A DNA stretch of 64,000 nt, from NCBI RefSeq assembly GCF_003334305.1, contig NZ_QOWS01000004.1. One strand, 5' to 3'. Shown piece after piece: positions 36,957 to 41,923 of this stretch (position 1 is its first letter; each line of letters starts with the position of its first letter). This DNA comes from Escherichia coli. GTDB taxonomy: Bacteria > Pseudomonadota > Gammaproteobacteria > Enterobacterales > Enterobacteriaceae. Made by a program: the position numbers and the translations under genes. The notes beneath the pieces are model-generated. The model was not told where the DNA came from, did not search any database, and worked only from the letters and a program-made list of their open reading frames with translations.

Positions 36957-38515
36957 TCAGCAGCCTCCTGCTTTTTCTCCCTGGCGGCTTTAGCACTTTG
37001 CTTCTCCGCCGATGTTGTGAAATATTTCTTGCGCGCGGTCATAACGCGTTTCAAATCAACAGGCTCATATGGATTGGTGAATACACGCTCGTCAAAATCC
37101 TGACGCGCGAATAACCAAATTTCCTTTTGCCATTTGCCGAGTAATTCGTCCGCATCCTGACCTTCTTCAATTTGGCGCACTAACCTCAGGAAGCGATGCT
37201 GAGTTTTGTTCCAGAAGTCGATATCCACAAAACTGAAATCACCCCGTGCACCTTTTGGATCGGAGAACCACGCTTCTTTCAATGCACTTCGTAACAGACT
37301 TAGAATCCGTGAAGCCGTTTGCGCAGCCAGACGCAGTTTCGGTATCTGGCCTTCTTTTTTCTTGAGCAGCAGCGGGAAATGGTGTTCGTACCAACAGCGC
37401 GCTTTCATGTTGTCGAAATCATAGCCAAATCCCCACAGGCCTACTTTTGCCTGTTTCAGACTGCTGGCATTAAAGAGTTTCACCACCAGCGCGGGAAGTT
37501 CCGTATTGTTTTCTGATTTACCCGTTTCGATAAGGCCTAACCAGTCGCGCCAGATTAAACCGCCCGGTTGTGGTTTGACCGAGTAAAACTCGCCCCCCTC
37601 TTTAAGTGGTATACGGTAAGGCGTTAAGGGATGCTGCCACATGGCATAATTCGCACCGTAATTTTTGGTCGTCATCAGGCTCAGGAGCGCGTCGCTCTGT
37701 TCACCGCAAATATCGCAGTTGCCGACTGTCGTGGTATTAAAATCAATACGAATACGGCGCGGCATTCCCCAGTAAGCCTGGAGTTTATTGACCTGATCAT
37801 GGGTTACCACCGCACCGGCCAGTTCGCTGGTTCGCGTCGGGCCAAGCCAGGGGAAAACCAGATCGTCAAATTTTTTGGGTAGCGGTAAGTCGGCTTCATC
37901 CTGCGGCATCACATTGGGCCACAGTTTGCGCCACAAGGGCGTTTGTTGATTGCCTTGATATTCCTGTAATTCAATCAGAGTGGTCATCGGCCCACCGCCG
38001 CGCAAACCGGTGCGATAGCCTTTGCCGCCTGATGGCGCATTTAACTGTAGGGAGAACAGAGCTAACGCGGAACAATGAGGGCATACGTGTTCAGTCACGC
38101 CACGCTTAATAAAGTGGTCTTTATTAAACTTCGTTGTTTGAGCGCCGGGAATCTCAGGCAGTAGCGAAGCGACCTGAACTTTATCTCCCTTGAGCGCCTC
38201 GAAATCCTGCATAAATGAAGGGGAATCTGCCCCAAACTGGAAAGCGTGTTCTAAGGACAGCAATGCTTCCCGTAGCTTTTCAGCCTCCAGTCCGTCTTCC
38301 CAGATATCATCCCAACGACCGTGATTTTTGGGCGCGAAGCTGGTTTGTAGTAGCCCCAGCAAAAACTGCCAGGCCGCACCCTGGAGATCTGCCCGCGGCG
38401 CAGCGATATCGACAACATTTTCATCAGCCAGATCGACTGGTGCCAGCTTGCCTGTCGTTCCGTCTTTAAAACGAACAGGCAACCACGGGGTTGTCAGAAG
38501 TGAAAACGAGTTCAT
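36953..38515 (-). CDS. casA: Cascade large subunit CasA/Cse1
   Basis: Start chosen at MNSFSLLTTPWLPVR (520 aa), preceded by GAGAGG at 6-nt spacing; the track ORF extends to 38584 (543 aa). Confidence 0.85.
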   Translation of the reverse strand: MNSFSLLTTPWLPVRFKDGTTGKLAPVDLADENVVDIAAPRADLQGAAWQFLLGLLQTSFAPKNHGRWDDIWEDGLEAEKLREALLSLEHAFQFGADSPSFMQDFEALKGDKVQVASLLPEIPGAQTTKFNKDHFIKRGVTEHVCPHCSALALFSLQLNAPSGGKGYRTGLRGGGPMTTLIELQEYQGNQQTPLWRKLWPNVMPQDEADLPLPKKFDDLVFPWLGPTRTSELAGAVVTHDQVNKLQAYWGMPRRIRIDFNTTTVGNCDICGEQSDALLSLMTTKNYGANYAMWQHPLTPYRIPLKEGGEFYSVKPQPGGLIWRDWLGLIETGKSENNTELPALVVKLFNASSLKQAKVGLWGFGYDFDNMKARCWYEHHFPLLLKKKEGQIPKLRLAAQTASRILSLLRSALKEAWFSDPKGARGDFSFVDIDFWNKTQHRFLRLVRQIEEGQDADELLGKWQKEIWLFARQDFDERVFTNPYEPVDLKRVMTARKKYFTTSAEKQSAKAAREKKQEAAE

Positions 38516-38612
38516 ACGCATCCTCTCGTAAAAAAGACCATCCCAGGTCGGTTGTCCATCTTTCCATCCTTTTCGGTGTATCAACTATTCAGAGAGTCCT
38601 GTCGCAGACATC

Positions 38613-41312
38613 TCAACCAACCTTGCCAATCAATCCTTCCGTAGCCGAATACCCGCAACTTTCGTCATCGTTGACTAAAATCACGTTTGCCATCTCCGGA
38701 TCTTGTCGCTGTTCAATGCACCACAGCCTGAACGCCTCTCCCTCCAGTAAAGAAAACTCATCCCGATGTTTTTTCCACCAGCTTCGGCGCACTCTGACAA
38801 CGCTCATTTCCCATGCGTGAGCACCGGTGGCATAAGGCTTCACCACACCGTCAATACAGGTAGCCAGCCACAGGGAAACAGACTCCTCAGCCAGACGTGT
38901 CGACAGTTTTTCCGGGAGGTAATCGTTGATATTGGCGGCATAGCCGGGCCTGAAGTTCAGCACAAACTTTTTAGCCATTGCGCGATCGCAGTAATATTTG
39001 CCCACTTGCTCCTGCTCGCTGCGGGCAAATCCTTCCGGCATTACCACGTCCTCACCGTAGACGGATTCAATAAGAAGCCGGGCTGCGTATGGCATCTGAA
39101 TAGCACCTTGCTCACGCAGCACACGCTGCGTCAGCCAGATTCGCCCATGATCGGGATAGACAAATGCACTGTTACGCATGGCACTGCCAAACCATTCGTC
39201 GCCAGGAGAGTCGTCCCAGACGGGAGCCAGAATCAGCAATTCAGGGGGGGAACGCTCGTCCTTTCCGTCACGCTTTAACTGACCATTAATATCGCGGATA
39301 TGCCGCTGTAATCGTCCTGCTCGCTGAATCAGCAAATCAACAGGGGCCAGGTCGGAGATCATTTCGTCCAGGTCAATATCCACGCTTTGCTCAATTACTT
39401 GTGTACAAACAATGACTTGCGACGCTCTCTGTAAACTACAATATTTACCAAAGCGTGCCAGTGTCTCCGTTTCAATTCGCTGGCGATCGCTAAAAGCAAA
39501 GCGGCTATGAAAAAGTGAAAGGCTGGAAGCAGGAATGACGCCGCGGGCAAGCAGCTGACGATGAACCTTAATAGCGTCATCGACAGAATTCCGGATCCAG
39601 GCGATGCATTTCCCCTGACTTACCGCCGATTCGATACGCGCAATACACTCTTGTTCACTATGAAGCCAACCCACGCTGACGCTACGCTCAACGTCTTTGC
39701 GCGTCGCTACCCGGTGTGAGTTCACATCGGATTTCGTGACATGCGTCAGCCAGGGGTAATCATCCTTTTCCAGGAACGGAGCTTCTTGCAGGCCCTCTGT
39801 ACCCCGCGCAAAGGCAGCGACGAGTTTGTCGCGCTGCTGTTGAGATAACGTGGCAGAAAGCAAAATAACGCTGTTTCCGCCACGCGCCTGCCGCTCGATC
39901 AACCCTTCAAGAATGCACGACATGTAAGCGTCACAGGCGTGGATCTCATCAGCCAGCAGGATTTTGTTACTCAGCCCCAGAAGCCGCAGATTATTATGTT
40001 TGAACGGCATCACCGCCATCATCGCCTGATCCAGCGTGCCGACGCCAATTTCAGCCAGCAACGCCTTCTTGTTACTGTCGGCAAACCAGGCCGCACATCC
40101 CTGACTGAACGTTTGTTCATCCGGTTCTTCTGACCCGACTAAATCACCAGACCAGAGTGATTCATTAAAGCGGTCCATTAATGTGCGGGCACTATGTGCC
40201 AGCACCAGGCTGGGGCGGGATTCTGGCGAATAGAAAGCAAGCCAGGTTTTGACCAGCCGATCGTACATGGCATTGGCCGTTGCCATTGTTGGCAGACCAA
40301 AAAACAGCCCCTGAGCTTTCCCCGCAGCTATCAACCTGTGCGCCAGGATAAGCGCCGCTTCTGTTTTACCTGCGCCAGTCACATCTTCCAGAATAAATAA
40401 CTGCGGTCCTTGCTGGCTGATATCCAGATCCAGCACCTTTTGCTGTAACGGTGTCGGATTCTCAATAAAAGGAAACAGCGTATTAATTCCGTTGAAAGGC
40501 GCGACTTTTGCTTTTAGAGGAAAGACGGTTAAGGCGTTTTGAGCCTGAATTAAAGTTTTCTGCCAGTAACCTTTAATATCCATTGGGTGTGCGACGCGTG
40601 GAAAAAATCGCGTTGACGAACCCGTCCAGTCTGCGAGCACGACGGTTGCAGAGATATACCAGGAAAGGTGTTTTATAAGTTCAATGCCCTCATCATCATC
40701 CCAGAATGCGGGGATCTCTATGAGCGGAAACAGTGGTTTGATTTCAAGGAGAAAATCTCGTGCTGCAGCTTTGTCTTCAGGCAGAAAATTATCCAATTCA
40801 TCCATACGATCAGGGGGCCGACCATGATGCCCTGTCGTCACGGGCATCCACATTTCTATCACTCGCCTAAGTTTGCGCGGAGAGAGCGAAGATGAAGGAA
40901 GTAACTCCTGACATTCACTTAAATAATGATTCCACAACCAGTAGCCCAGCGTTGAATGAGAGATTTTTTCGTAATTTTTTCTGGCACCTTCCTGAATCTT
41001 GAGTTCAGGGGGCAGGTAAAGTTGTTGAAAAGAGCGGGCAAATTTTCCAATATCGTGCCAGCACAGCAACCAGGCGAAAAATTGAGCCGCCTGTTCCTTG
41101 TCAGAAATCCCTAATTGACGAAAATAATCAGCCAGCCCGAAGCAATTTCTTTTAACCATTAAATAGCCCATCGCGGCTACATCCAGCGAATGCCAGCAAA
41201 GAAGGTGATAGTCGTCGCCCCCGTCTTTCTCGCCGCGTCGGGTTTTTCCCCAGAAATCAAAAAAAGTCACAATATTTTTATCCTTCAGTAAACTTAAAGG
41301 ATATTTACGCAT
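38613..41312 (-). CDS. cas3: CRISPR-associated helicase-nuclease Cas3 (HD nuclease + DEAD/DEAH helicase)
   Basis: 899 aa; N-terminal HD motif (HDIGKF) and helicase motif GAGKTEAAL. Confidence 0.93.
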   Translation of the reverse strand: MRKYPLSLLKDKNIVTFFDFWGKTRRGEKDGGDDYHLLCWHSLDVAAMGYLMVKRNCFGLADYFRQLGISDKEQAAQFFAWLLCWHDIGKFARSFQQLYLPPELKIQEGARKNYEKISHSTLGYWLWNHYLSECQELLPSSSLSPRKLRRVIEMWMPVTTGHHGRPPDRMDELDNFLPEDKAAARDFLLEIKPLFPLIEIPAFWDDDEGIELIKHLSWYISATVVLADWTGSSTRFFPRVAHPMDIKGYWQKTLIQAQNALTVFPLKAKVAPFNGINTLFPFIENPTPLQQKVLDLDISQQGPQLFILEDVTGAGKTEAALILAHRLIAAGKAQGLFFGLPTMATANAMYDRLVKTWLAFYSPESRPSLVLAHSARTLMDRFNESLWSGDLVGSEEPDEQTFSQGCAAWFADSNKKALLAEIGVGTLDQAMMAVMPFKHNNLRLLGLSNKILLADEIHACDAYMSCILEGLIERQARGGNSVILLSATLSQQQRDKLVAAFARGTEGLQEAPFLEKDDYPWLTHVTKSDVNSHRVATRKDVERSVSVGWLHSEQECIARIESAVSQGKCIAWIRNSVDDAIKVHRQLLARGVIPASSLSLFHSRFAFSDRQRIETETLARFGKYCSLQRASQVIVCTQVIEQSVDIDLDEMISDLAPVDLLIQRAGRLQRHIRDINGQLKRDGKDERSPPELLILAPVWDDSPGDEWFGSAMRNSAFVYPDHGRIWLTQRVLREQGAIQMPYAARLLIESVYGEDVVMPEGFARSEQEQVGKYYCDRAMAKKFVLNFRPGYAANINDYLPEKLSTRLAEESVSLWLATCIDGVVKPYATGAHAWEMSVVRVRRSWWKKHRDEFSLLEGEAFRLWCIEQRQDPEMANVILVNDDESCGYSATEGLIGKVG

Positions 41313-41507
41313 ATATTAAAAATTATCTGTGATATATATCATTCAATAAAATATTTACATTATGAATAATCAAATAATTTTCATCCGTAATATATATGAA
41401 TAATAAACATAGGCATAATATTCACATAAACAATATAAATTAAAAAAGGGTGCAGGAGACCAAACCATCACAATTCAGTACGCGGGGTTTTACCCCCGCG
41501 TGGTGGC

Positions 41508-41660
41508 TACTTCTTCGATTCGTAAGCGAGAACTGCCTTAAACTCCATACCACGTTCTCTGATACTCAACTCACACAACGAGTCGCCTACCATCAGCGTG
41601 AATCCCAGTACTGTAAAACACAGCACTATGATTGCCACAAGGGCATATTTTGTCAGCATG
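41508..41660 (-). CDS. hokX: Hok-family type I toxin (50 aa), not present in the ORF track
   Basis: Manual translation of the minus strand from ATG 41660-41658, preceded by GGGAGG: [50 protein letters not shown], stop TAG. Hok/Gef signature; the hokX symbol is from memory of the K-12 cysH-cas3 gap. Confidence 0.85.
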
Positions 41661-41923
41661 TCTTGCCTCCCTGCAAAGAAGAGACTAACATTCGAATTGT
41701 TTGGGTTCGAACGTAAGCCTCAGGTTGATAGAAATATCGCCTGGGGCTTTTGTCCATCTGGAACCTCGCGAATGCTTAACGCCAGACAGCCTCAAGCACC
41801 CGACGCCATTCTATACCTGATAATTCTTCCAGCGGCGTTCACGTTTAAAATCAGGAATACTGCTCGCAAAATAAAAACGCCCCCATCATTTCTGACAGAG
41901 GCGTTTAATTTATCCGGCAATAT

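What the first reader, a model, noticed from the sequence alone, without database searches (positions are those of the whole stretch)
41313..41460. Extremely AT-rich block immediately upstream of cas3
About 150 bp of near-pure A/T with phased A-tracts abuts the cas3 start and the 3' end of the hok locus. This is typical of H-NS nucleation sites and may explain silencing of cas3, and possibly antisense transcription into hok.
Basis: inference. Interest (0 to 1): 0.3.

Follow-up and report, generated by a model that had tools for sequence, protein, structure and literature searches.

The report
AT-rich promoter region of cas3
The very A/T-rich stretch is the promoter and leader of the CRISPR nuclease gene cas3 in the commonest E. 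coli version of the system, an ordinary kind of control region that probably combines an activator site (Fnr/CRP type) with DNA that the silencer H-NS would like, and not a curved "phased A-tract" element.

Summary
The AT-rich block is real. Positions 41313-41441 are 15% G+C, the lowest in the 64-kb window (tied with a CRISPR leader). Its A-tracts are not helically phased and its predicted curvature is ordinary; it is TpA-rich instead. The last ~20 nt of the flagged interval (41442-41461) are the 3' end of hok mRNA.

The block belongs to the CRISPR-cas module. Genomes without cas genes join iap to hok at about 41441. It is the promoter and leader of cas3 in the non-K-12 type I-E variant, found in 51% of complete E. 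coli genomes. K-12 has an unrelated, less AT-rich sequence here, so K-12 promoter data do not transfer.

cas3 most likely starts at GTG 41270, not at the annotated ATG 41312. The conserved proximal half carries a CRP/FNR-type palindrome (41329-41342), centred 65.5 nt before the GTG. That is the position of the Fnr site that activates cas3 in Citrobacter rodentium. The palindrome lies 34.5 nt from a conserved TAAATAT.

The distal half is dimorphic in E. coli yet stays ~15% G+C. This fits composition-dependent binding such as H-NS, but occupancy is untested. It is a known kind of element and of modest interest.

The parts
41442..41461 (-). 3' end of hok mRNA: GGUCUCCUGCACCC (41461-41448, fold-back element pairing with the 5' end GGGUGC..GAGGCU at ~41801) followed by U6 (41447-41442).
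   Evidence: The 368-nt hok RNA folds with 5'-3' pairing at -133 kcal/mol, z = -5.3. Rfam sok/hok-leader hit at 41644-41801, 113 bits. Coordinates. Genomes lacking cas genes share sequence with the window from ~41441 rightwards.
41346..41441 (.). Distal half of the AT-rich block. It is dimorphic and poorly conserved in sequence, but ~13-16% G+C in every allele. It is a candidate composition-dependent target (H-NS; possibly UP-element-like DNA for RNA polymerase alpha).
   Evidence: 1074 genomes are >=95% identical and 1620 are only 60-80% identical. Window vs strain 2013C-3264: 20 mismatches and 5 gap columns in the block, against 0 mismatches in the 859 flanking bases from 40671 to 41659. G+C is 0.125-0.155 in all alleles, and 8 of 20 changes are A<->T.
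41329..41342 (-). CRP/FNR-family type inverted repeat ATGATATATATCAC (core 12-bp perfect palindrome TGATATATATCA). Its centre, 41335.5, is 65.5 nt upstream of GTG 41270.
   Evidence: It matches 8/10 to TTGAT-N4-ATCAA with both TGA/TCA cores intact. No equal site occurs elsewhere in 250 nt. 2.7% of shuffles have such a site anywhere and 0.06% have one at this position. Similar sites sit at the same position in Salmonella, Citrobacter, Klebsiella, Phytobacter and Intestinirhabdus orthologues. It is conserved in both main E. coli alleles. The C. rodentium Fnr site lies at -69.5 (PMC12669028).
41322..41327 (-). GATAAT hexamer, an alternative -10 candidate. A start near 41315 would put the palindrome between -35 and -10.
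   Evidence: Own scan. It is invariant in E. coli but not conserved in E. albertii, Intestinirhabdus or strain SCPM-O-B-8794.
41301..41307 (-). TAAATAT, the favoured -10 element (hexamer AAATAT 41306-41301). Its last base is 34.5 nt from the palindrome centre, the geometry of a class II (-41.5) activator-dependent promoter.
   Evidence: Coordinates and spacing. It is conserved as TAAATAT/TAAAAT in all nine aligned Escherichia, Pseudocitrobacter and Intestinirhabdus sequences, at the same spacing.
41292..41296 (-). Predicted transcription start (A at 41294), giving a 24-nt leader. This is inferred and has not been mapped.
   Evidence: Geometry. There are no experimental data.
41281..41285 (-). 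AAGGA ribosome-binding site, 10 nt before the GTG.
   Evidence: Sequence. It is invariant in the E. coli alleles.
41268..41270 (-). GTG, the probable true start codon of cas3 (885-aa product, CDS 38613-41270).
   Evidence: Homology to orthologues begins at residues 15-17. Codon 15 is GTG/TTG in 11 of the 12 closest orthologues. GTG is the first start of intact 885/886-aa ORFs in Escherichia sp. MOD1, Intestinirhabdus alba and E. coli GPEC1042, where a +1 T insertion puts the ATG out of frame.
41310..41312 (-). ATG annotated by RefSeq/PGAP as the cas3 start. It is probably not used and has no Shine-Dalgarno sequence.
   Evidence: and the evidence given for the GTG.
38613..41270 (-). cas3 of the non-K-12 type I-E variant, followed by a 97-bp, 47% G+C spacer and casA (ATG at 38515).
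   Evidence: Variant naming follows PMC12736100.
41507..41801 (-). Intact hok/sok type I toxin-antitoxin locus (Hok ORF 41507-41659; leader/Sok region 41644-41801). It lies upstream of cas3 and is co-directional with it.
   Evidence: In K-12 only the sokX remnant is left.

Best explanation
[quoted passage not shown] It sits at the outer edge of the CRISPR-cas module, where that module meets the 3' end of the hok/sok locus.

SHOWN:
- It belongs to the cas module.
- It is absent from K-12.
- Its proximal 84 bp are almost invariant in ~2770 E. coli genomes.
- Its distal ~100 bp exist as two alleles that differ by ~20% yet both keep ~15% G+C.
- cas3 homology and intact ORFs begin at GTG 41270.

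INFERRED:
- Transcription starts near 41294 from a weak -10 (AAATAT, 41306-41301) with no usable -35.
- The promoter depends on a CRP/FNR-family activator bound to the palindrome 41329-41342, centred at -41.5. This is the positional homologue of the Fnr site that switches on cas3 in Citrobacter rodentium under anoxia.
- The surrounding TpA-rich, 15% G+C DNA, especially the distal half, is a likely H-NS (xenogeneic silencer) target. H-NS there would keep the promoter shut when the activator is absent.
- Read-through into casA-cas2 across the short, GC-normal 97-bp spacer is possible but not established.
For: LOCATION AND OWNERSHIP. cas-less genomes join iap to hok, and the shared sequence with the window begins at ~41441. 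The block occurs in 2776 of 5426 complete genomes, always with this cas3.

K-12 DIFFERS. Its cas3 upstream is 133 bp at 37% G+C and shows no similarity left of 41657. In K-12 the AT-rich control DNA lies between cas3 and casA instead (414 bp, 29.5% G+C), where this variant has 97 bp at 47%.

START CODON.

CONSERVATION. 41262-41345 is >=95% identical in 2758 of 2774 genomes. 41268-41312 has 0 mismatches even against strains whose cas3 coding DNA differs by 8%.

ACTIVATOR SITE.
- It matches the consensus 8/10 with intact cores and is unique within 250 nt.
- Shuffle frequencies are 2.7% anywhere and 0.06% at this position.
- Across 78 orthologous loci anchored on the conserved Trp codon, 7 of 14 such sites fall at -82.5 to -90.5; the window's site is at -83.5.
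- I reproduced the published -67.5 position for 'Escherichia alba' (L015) (PMC12669028 source data).
- The Fnr site at -69.5 is genetically validated in C. rodentium (PMC12669028).

GEOMETRY. The site centre is 34.5 nt from the conserved TAAATAT. No consensus sigma-70 promoter was found in the block, as expected for an activator-dependent promoter.

H-NS PLAUSIBILITY. The composition and TpA density exceed those of the validated K-12 H-NS target. Composition is conserved across the diverged alleles. 10 of the 12 closest orthologues have <=34% G+C in the 150 bp upstream. H-NS silences cas3 in S. Typhi (PMC8039139) and in stationary-phase K-12 (PMC4782391).
Against: - No transcription start, footprint or ChIP data exist for this allele. 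TSS, -10 and activator dependence are inferred from geometry and conservation.
- E. coli does not appear in the published list of species with a predicted Fnr site, although EDL933 was included in that survey.
- Neither half-site has the first T of TTGAT (ATGAT / GTGAT). The site is therefore as good a CRP site (TGTGA-N6-TCATT) as an FNR site, and the activator's identity is open.
- The site is degraded in some Escherichia lineages with intact cas3 (MOD1 ACGAT..GTCAC; SCPM-O-B-8794 has none).
- Other -10-like hexamers exist (GATAAT 41327-41322; TGTAAATAT 41359-41351).
- For H-NS: the patch is short (~170-200 bp), is not curved, and has only one 2-mismatch match to the reported high-affinity motif TCGATAAATT. 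In K-12, which has a different promoter, the hns effect on cas3 is small in log phase (PMC7019758, PMC4782391).
Confidence: 0.6

Rival explanations
1. The block is primarily an H-NS nucleation site, built from helically phased A-tracts (curved DNA). H-NS spreads from it and silences cas3, and no specific activator site is involved.
For: Extreme AT content and TpA density. AT content is maintained in both diverged alleles. H-NS control of cas3 is reported in S. Typhi and K-12 (PMC8039139, PMC4782391).
Against: There is no A-tract phasing (35% of shuffles match or exceed the periodicity). Predicted curvature is ordinary. The patch is short and flanked by 50% G+C DNA. The most conserved part is a specific palindrome plus core promoter, not generic AT DNA. 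This reading does not explain the positional conservation of the TGA-N6-TCA site across genera.
Confidence: 0.22
2. The promoter is a different one inside the block. It uses GATAAT (41327-41322, start ~41315, possibly a leaderless mRNA on ATG 41312) or the extended -10 TGTAAATAT (41359-41351, start ~41344). The palindrome then overlaps or follows the promoter and acts as an operator for repression by CRP/FNR or another dimer.
For: GATAAT is 5/6 to consensus and is invariant in E. coli. The PGAP-annotated ATG sits 10 nt downstream of it. TGTAAATAT has a TG at the extended -10 position.
Against: GATAAT and the TG motif are not conserved outside E. coli, whereas TAAATAT and the palindrome position are. 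The ATG is out of frame in lineages with intact cas3. The validated orthologous site in C. rodentium activates rather than represses (PMC12669028).
Confidence: 0.12
3. The block has no dedicated function. It is a spacer or scar at the edge of a horizontally acquired module, and its composition reflects donor DNA or mutational bias.
For: It lies exactly at the module boundary. The distal half is highly variable and has indels. IS elements insert here.
Against: cas3 needs a promoter, and this is the only non-coding DNA upstream of it. The proximal 84 bp are more conserved than the adjacent coding DNA. The two alleles keep 15% G+C after ~20% divergence, far below any plausible neutral equilibrium for E. 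coli.
Confidence: 0.05
4. The block fires transcription on the + strand into the hok 3' end, producing an antisense RNA that affects hok.
For: Several weak -10/-35 combinations lie on the + strand (for example CATAAT 41414-41419, start ~41426). TANNNT hexamers occur at 18 per 130 bp, against 2.5 on average.
Against: None reaches the 9/12 consensus threshold, and the tool's scan finds no promoter in the block. Such hexamers are expected from composition alone. There is no Rfam hit. This part of the block is poorly conserved. The known hok regulator Sok acts at the 5' leader, 200-350 nt away.
Confidence: 0.04

Closest known systems
[quoted passage not shown] 2025, Nat Microbiol, PMC12669028)
   Same: The cas3 genes are orthologous (the window's Cas3 is 67-75% identical to Citrobacter, Salmonella and Klebsiella orthologues). 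A TGA-N6-TCA inverted repeat lies at the same distance from the conserved GTG start: -65.5 here, -69.5 in C. rodentium, and -64.5 to -70.5 in the published cluster.
   Different: The E. coli site lacks the outer T of TTGAT in both half-sites, and E. coli does not appear in that paper's list of species with a predicted Fnr site. Fnr dependence is untested in E. coli. The E. coli upstream DNA is far more AT-rich than, for example, Intestinirhabdus (45% G+C).
cas3 transcription unit of Salmonella Typhi, silenced by H-NS (Medina-Aparicio et al. 2017, as summarised in PMC8039139)
   Same: The Cas3 is orthologous (a Salmonella Cas3, S. enterica subsp. diarizonae L020, is 70% identical). Its upstream region is AT-rich (26% G+C in 150 bp). 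cas3 has its own promoter.
   Different: The upstream neighbour differs and the sequence cannot be aligned. The H-NS effect was shown there and not here.
E. coli K-12 Pcas / IGLB region between cas3 and casA, silenced by H-NS and relieved by LeuO (Pul et al. 2010; Westra et al. 2010; cited in PMC7019758)
   Same: It is AT-rich control DNA of a type I-E cas locus at the same chromosomal site (29.5% G+C over 414 bp, 19% minimum).
   Different: It lies in a different place (between cas3 and casA, not upstream of cas3) and has no sequence similarity. In the window's variant that spacer is 97 bp at 47% G+C.
E. coli K-12 cas3 promoter with a CRP site (Yang et al. 2020, PMC7019758)
   Same: It is the same functional slot (cas3 upstream, next to the sokX/hok remnant), and a CRP-family activator has been reported for it.
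   Different: The sequence is unrelated (TATGAGCAGCATCGAA, 37% G+C). The hok ORF is deleted in K-12. The hns effect is small in log phase.
Classical curved-DNA H-NS nucleation sites (e.g. proU, bgl regulatory regions)
   Same: High A/T content next to a promoter.
   Different: There are no phased A-tracts and no predicted curvature. There is no good match to the TCGATAAATT motif (motif recalled from Lang et al. 2007).

Membership tests
H-NS (xenogeneic silencer) target region | A/T content far above the genome average | tested here: met
   15.4% G+C against 51.8% for the window, and lower than the validated K-12 IGLB target.
H-NS (xenogeneic silencer) target region | TpA-step-rich, flexible AT DNA (preferred over rigid A-tracts, per Gordon et al. 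2011, from memory) | tested here: met
   0.19 TpA per step against 0.044 window-wide.
   The 10-11.5 bp periodicity is matched or exceeded by 35% of shuffles. Curvature falls at the 12th-53rd percentile.
H-NS (xenogeneic silencer) target region | Extended AT-rich tract allowing filament spreading or bridging | tested here: inconclusive
   Strongly AT-rich DNA spans only ~170-200 bp. 50-bp windows below 35% G+C run with interruptions from 41112 to 41481, and the cas3 body is 51% G+C.
H-NS (xenogeneic silencer) target region | H-NS occupancy in vivo and derepression in hns mutants | not testable with these tools
   Only precedents are available: S. Typhi cas3 (PMC8039139), and K-12 cas3 up 8-fold in stationary phase (PMC4782391; a different promoter).
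Class II CRP/FNR-dependent promoter | Inverted repeat matching TTGAT-N4-ATCAA (FNR) or TGTGA-N6-TCACA (CRP) | tested here: met
   ATGATATATATCAC scores 8/10 to either consensus and both TGA/TCA cores are intact. 2.7% of shuffles contain an equal site.
Class II CRP/FNR-dependent promoter | Site centred at -41.5 relative to the transcription start | tested here: inconclusive
   The site is exactly 34.5 nt from the last base of the conserved AAATAT hexamer, which gives -41.5 if the start is 41294. The start has not been mapped.
Class II CRP/FNR-dependent promoter | Positional conservation with an experimentally validated orthologous site | tested here: met
   The site is at -65.5 from the GTG, against the published -64.5 to -70.5 cluster. 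7 of 14 sites in 78 orthologous loci fall at the same anchor distance.
Class II CRP/FNR-dependent promoter | Dependence of transcription on the activator | not testable with these tools
   This is validated only in C. rodentium (PMC12669028).
Consensus sigma-70 promoter | -35/-10 hexamers with at least 9 of 12 matches at 16-18 bp spacing | tested here: not met
   The tool scan finds none in 41313-41441 on either strand. The best combinations in my own scan score 8.
hok/sok type I toxin-antitoxin locus (applies to 41442-41801 only) | Hok ORF, Sok/leader RNA family match, and pairing between the 5' and 3' ends of the mRNA | tested here: met
   A 50-aa Hok ORF annotated as Hok/Gef. Rfam RF01794 hit of 113 bits. 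End-to-end pairing with z = -5.3.

The most novel reading that the evidence does not exclude
The commonest E. coli CRISPR-Cas system (the non-K-12 type I-E variant, 51% of complete genomes) is switched on through the conserved palindrome 41329-41342 by Fnr in anoxia, or by cAMP-CRP. That would make it a member of the Fnr-controlled cas3 group described in 2025. On this reading the published survey missed it for two reasons: the site is sub-threshold for the FNR matrix, and RefSeq places the cas3 start 42 nt too far upstream. The AT-rich dimorphic segment upstream would then provide a second, H-NS-dependent lock, and the two recombining promoter alleles would set different expression thresholds.
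Probability: 0.3. Interest if true: 0.55.

Novelty: new member of a known kind. Interest (0 to 1): 0.3.

Why it matters
Why native E. coli CRISPR-Cas is silent in the laboratory has mostly been studied in K-12. K-12's control DNA is organised differently and is unrelated in sequence to that of the variant carried by half of all sequenced E. coli.

This work pins down the control region of that variant: its boundaries, the true start codon, the conserved core promoter with a CRP/FNR-type site, and the variable AT-rich upstream half. That turns a vague 'H-NS probably sits here' into specific, cheap experiments.

It also flags an annotation problem. The ATG start creates false 'frameshifted' cas3 pseudogene calls and shifts motif positions in comparative promoter surveys.

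The element itself is an ordinary regulated promoter of a horizontally acquired operon.

Tried and rejected
- Phased A-tracts and curvature: rejected by Fourier analysis of AA/TT and by three wedge models.
- A structured RNA in the block: no Rfam match at E <= 1.
- A protein-coding ORF in the block: only mechanical 33-37 aa ORFs with no support.
- Repeats linking the block to the CRISPR leader or elsewhere in 31.5-41.7 kb: none found.
- H-NS high-affinity motif TCGATAAATT: one 2-mismatch match in the block, so uninformative.
- Transfer of K-12 cas3 promoter data (CRP site, hns effect): rejected, because the K-12 upstream sequence is not homologous.
- A consensus sigma-70 promoter on either strand: none found.
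- Retrieving the C. rodentium site sequence and the per-genome Fnr table from the paper's supplements: the tables were truncated in the held copy.
- Published H-NS ChIP data for E. coli strains with this variant: none found.
- IHF and second CRP half-site candidates in the distal half: seen by eye, not conserved between the alleles, and not pursued.

Full report
WHAT THE WINDOW IS. The region is the iap-cysH interval of an E. coli chromosome. Positions 41100-41900 are 100% identical to strain 120899. All the genes below lie on the minus strand, listed here from high to low coordinates:
- cysJ, cysI, cysH;
- an intact hok/sok locus (Hok ORF 41507-41659; Rfam sok/hok-leader match 41644-41801, 113 bits);
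- the flagged AT-rich block;
- cas3 (ORF 38613-41312), then casA and the rest of a type I-E cas operon;
- a CRISPR array (31897-32669), followed by iap, which is on the + strand (30778-31815).

THE OBSERVATION. The A/T richness is real and exceptional.
- 41313-41460 has 19.6% G+C and 41313-41442 has 15.4%, against 51.8% for the window.
- The most AT-rich 148-nt window of the whole 64 kb starts at 41300.
- Only 0.19% of windows are as AT-rich.

The 'phased A-tracts' are not there.
- A-tracts are few and irregularly spaced.
- AA/TT periodicity at 10-11.5 bp is no better than in dinucleotide shuffles (35% of shuffles do as well).
- Three wedge models predict ordinary curvature, at the 12th-53rd percentile of the window. 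The angle tables were recalled from memory, so this is semi-quantitative.
- The block is instead TpA-rich (0.19 per step vs 0.044).

BOUNDARIES.
- On the right, 41442-41461 is the 3' end of hok mRNA. The sequence GGUCUCCUGCACCC-U6 pairs with the 5' end GGGUGC..GAGGCU in a fold of -133 kcal/mol, z = -5.3.
- Genomes with no CRISPR-cas here (for example APEC 16-1068 and an ST131 strain) run from the iap stop codon through 58 unrelated bases straight into AAAAAAGGGTGCAGGAGACC. The block therefore belongs to the cas module and ends at ~41441.
- On the left, the annotated ATG (41312) is probably not the start of cas3. tblastn homology to orthologues from other genera begins at residues 15-17. Codon 15 is GTG or TTG in 11 of the 12 closest orthologues.
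- In Escherichia sp. MOD1-EC7003, Intestinirhabdus alba and E. coli GPEC1042, the GTG is the first start codon of an intact 885/886-aa ORF.
- In MOD1 and GPEC1042, a +1 T insertion between ATG and GTG puts the ATG out of frame. PGAP therefore labels the GPEC1042 gene 'frameshifted' although it is intact from the GTG.
- The GTG (41270) is preceded by AAGGA (41285-41281). The ATG has no ribosome-binding site.
- The AT-rich tract 41271-41441 (17% G+C) is thus promoter plus leader.

IT IS NOT THE K-12 SEQUENCE. K-12 MG1655 carries the other type I-E variant. Its cas3 is preceded by an unrelated 133 bp (37% G+C) and then by the sokX remnant. Similarity to the window starts only at 41657.
- The published K-12 findings on this promoter do not transfer. 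These are a CRP site TATGAGCAGCATCGAA, only a slight increase in an hns mutant in log phase (PMC7019758), and an eight-fold increase in stationary phase (PMC4782391).
- The window's variant has been called 'var. B-8552' (PMC12736100).
- In K-12 the AT-rich, H-NS- and LeuO-controlled DNA lies between cas3 and casA (414 bp, 29.5% G+C, 130-bp minimum 19%). In the window that spacer is 97 bp at 47% G+C, and the AT-rich DNA lies upstream of cas3.

POPULATION PATTERN. The block is present in 2776 of 5426 complete E. coli genomes, once per genome.
- Its proximal part (41262-41345) is >=95% identical in 2758 of 2774 genomes.
- Its distal part (41346-41445) is bimodal: 1074 genomes at >=95% and 1620 at 60-80%.
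- Against strain 2013C-3264, the window shows no mismatch in the 859 flanking bases from 40671 to 41659, but 20 mismatches and 5 gap columns inside the 130-bp block.
- Promoter alleles and cas3 coding haplotypes occur in all four combinations among the window, L007, L008 and L009. The segment has therefore been exchanged by recombination.
- Both alleles keep 12.5-15.5% G+C. 8 of the 20 differences are A<->T changes, against 3 of 73 in the flanks of another strain pair.
- Composition, not sequence, is what is retained in the distal half.

THE CONSERVED CORE. The proximal half holds a perfect 12-bp palindrome TGATATATATCA. As a 14-mer it reads ATGATATATATCAC on the cas3 strand, at 41342-41329.
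- It matches 8 of 10 consensus positions of the FNR site TTGAT-N4-ATCAA, and equally the CRP core TGTGA-N6-TCATT.
- It is the only such site in 250 nt. An equal site appears in 2.7% of shuffles of the block, and in 0.06% at this position.
- Its centre is 65.5 nt upstream of the GTG.

Campbell et al. (PMC12669028) showed that in Citrobacter rodentium an Fnr site centred 69.5 nt upstream of cas3 is required for anoxic induction of cas3 and for CRISPR immunity. They also found that predicted sites cluster at -64.5 to -70.5 in 13 of 32 Enterobacteriaceae.
- I reproduced their -67.5 for 'Escherichia alba' (= Intestinirhabdus alba, L015) using the GTG start.
- I found equivalent sites in Phytobacter, Salmonella diarizonae, Klebsiella grimontii and a Citrobacter MAG, and weaker ones in C. 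sedlakii.
- I anchored 78 orthologous loci on the conserved Trp codon of the WGK motif. Of the 14 sites with intact cores, 7 lie at -82.5 to -90.5, and the window's site is at -83.5.
- The palindrome centre is 34.5 nt from the last base of a TAAATAT (41307-41301). That element is conserved at the same spacing in all nine aligned Escherichia, Pseudocitrobacter and Intestinirhabdus sequences.
- With a start at A 41294, the site sits at -41.5, the standard class II geometry (established knowledge of CRP/FNR promoters). There is no usable -35.
- The tool scan finds no consensus sigma-70 promoter in the block.

MECHANISM PROPOSED.
- Shown: position, ownership, conservation pattern and start codon.
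- Inferred: a weak, activator-dependent cas3 promoter (start ~41294, 24-nt leader) driven by Fnr or CRP bound at 41329-41342.
- Inferred: an AT-rich surround, above all the distal half, that H-NS would be expected to coat.
- Both features would keep cas3 off in aerobic, glucose-rich laboratory culture.
- H-NS silencing of the orthologous S. Typhi cas3 unit is reported (PMC8039139).

CAVEATS.
- E. coli does not appear in the published list of species with a predicted Fnr site, although EDL933 was included in the survey.
- Both half-sites lack the outer T of TTGAT.
- Some Escherichia lineages have a degraded site.
- Other -10-like hexamers exist (GATAAT 41327-41322; TGTAAATAT 41359-41351).
- The AT-rich patch is short and not curved.
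- The TCGATAAATT motif is essentially absent.
- In C. rodentium, cas3 is induced far more than casA-E (log2 4.9 vs 1.2-1.6; source data). Control of the whole operon from this promoter is therefore not assumed.

THE hok ASPECT. hok lies upstream of cas3 and is transcribed in the same direction. An 'antisense into hok' transcript would need a + strand promoter in the poorly conserved distal half. Only chance-level hexamers are there. Read-through from hok into the cas3 promoter is conceivable, because no canonical terminator was called by the scan. A local hairpin does end 4 nt before the U-run. This was not tested.

VERDICT. The composition claim is right and the structural claim (phasing) is wrong. 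The functional guess (H-NS) is plausible but unproven and incomplete. The element is the cas3 promoter and leader of the non-K-12 type I-E variant. It is a new member of a known kind: orthologous promoters have been characterised in C. rodentium and S. Typhi. I rate the interest as modest (0.3). It is raised a little by three points: the testable idea that the commonest E. coli CRISPR-Cas system shares the Fnr/CRP switch, the start-codon misannotation, and the sharply bounded promoter dimorphism.

Noticed in passing
window 41268-41312: The RefSeq/PGAP start of this cas3 variant (ATG 41312) is probably 42 nt too far upstream, and GTG 41270 is the likely start. A +1 T insertion between the two makes PGAP call an intact cas3 'frameshifted' in strain GPEC1042. 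The misplaced start also shifts promoter-motif positions in comparative surveys.
   Followed up: yes
window 41346-41445: A sharply bounded dimorphism: two alleles differ by ~20% (1074 vs 1620 genomes), while the flanking cas3 and hok DNA can be 100% identical. The alleles occur in all combinations with cas3 coding haplotypes, which implies short-tract recombination or balancing selection on the promoter-distal segment.
   Followed up: partly
window 38516-38612 (cas3-casA spacer): The spacer is only 97 bp at 47% G+C, with a weak hairpin plus T6 (38549-38530). In K-12 it is a 414-bp AT-rich H-NS/LeuO-controlled region. The AT-rich control DNA sits in a different place in the two E. coli type I-E variants.
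   Followed up: partly
window ~40054-40204 vs L001 (strain 120899): Strain 120899 is identical to the window around the block. It carries a 144-bp in-frame duplication inside cas3 (947 vs 899 annotated aa) and is only 97% identical further into cas3 and casA. The window therefore comes from a different strain.
   Followed up: partly
L010 (strain EC6622) ~ window 41377; L005 (E. coli C122) ~ window 41485: Insertion sequences break this junction. IS1 is inserted inside the AT-rich block ~65 bp upstream of the annotated ATG. An IS421-family element abuts the hok 3' region in E. coli C, which has lost the cas genes.
   Followed up: partly
window 41442-41801 vs K-12 (L002 9313-9460): The hok/sok locus is intact here (50-aa Hok, full mRNA with 5'-3' pairing). 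K-12 retains only the leader/sokX part, with the Hok ORF and 3' end replaced.
   Followed up: yes
window 57842-59188: The second very AT-rich stretch (down to 16% G+C) matches the position of the second CRISPR array, between ygcE and queE in the closely related strain 120899. It is probably that array's AT-rich leader.
   Followed up: partly
L013 (Pseudocitrobacter vendiensis contig): The contig carries an E. coli-like junction of the hok 3' end, the AT block and cas3 (Cas3 92% identical), including the +1 T insertion. This is either recent horizontal transfer or an assembly or taxonomy issue.
   Followed up: no
window 41875-41906 (- strand): A strong intrinsic terminator lies after cysH (14-bp stem plus T-run). 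It attracts weak, sub-threshold Rfam hits (ctRNA_p42d, Spot_42) that are almost certainly just terminator resemblance.
   Followed up: no
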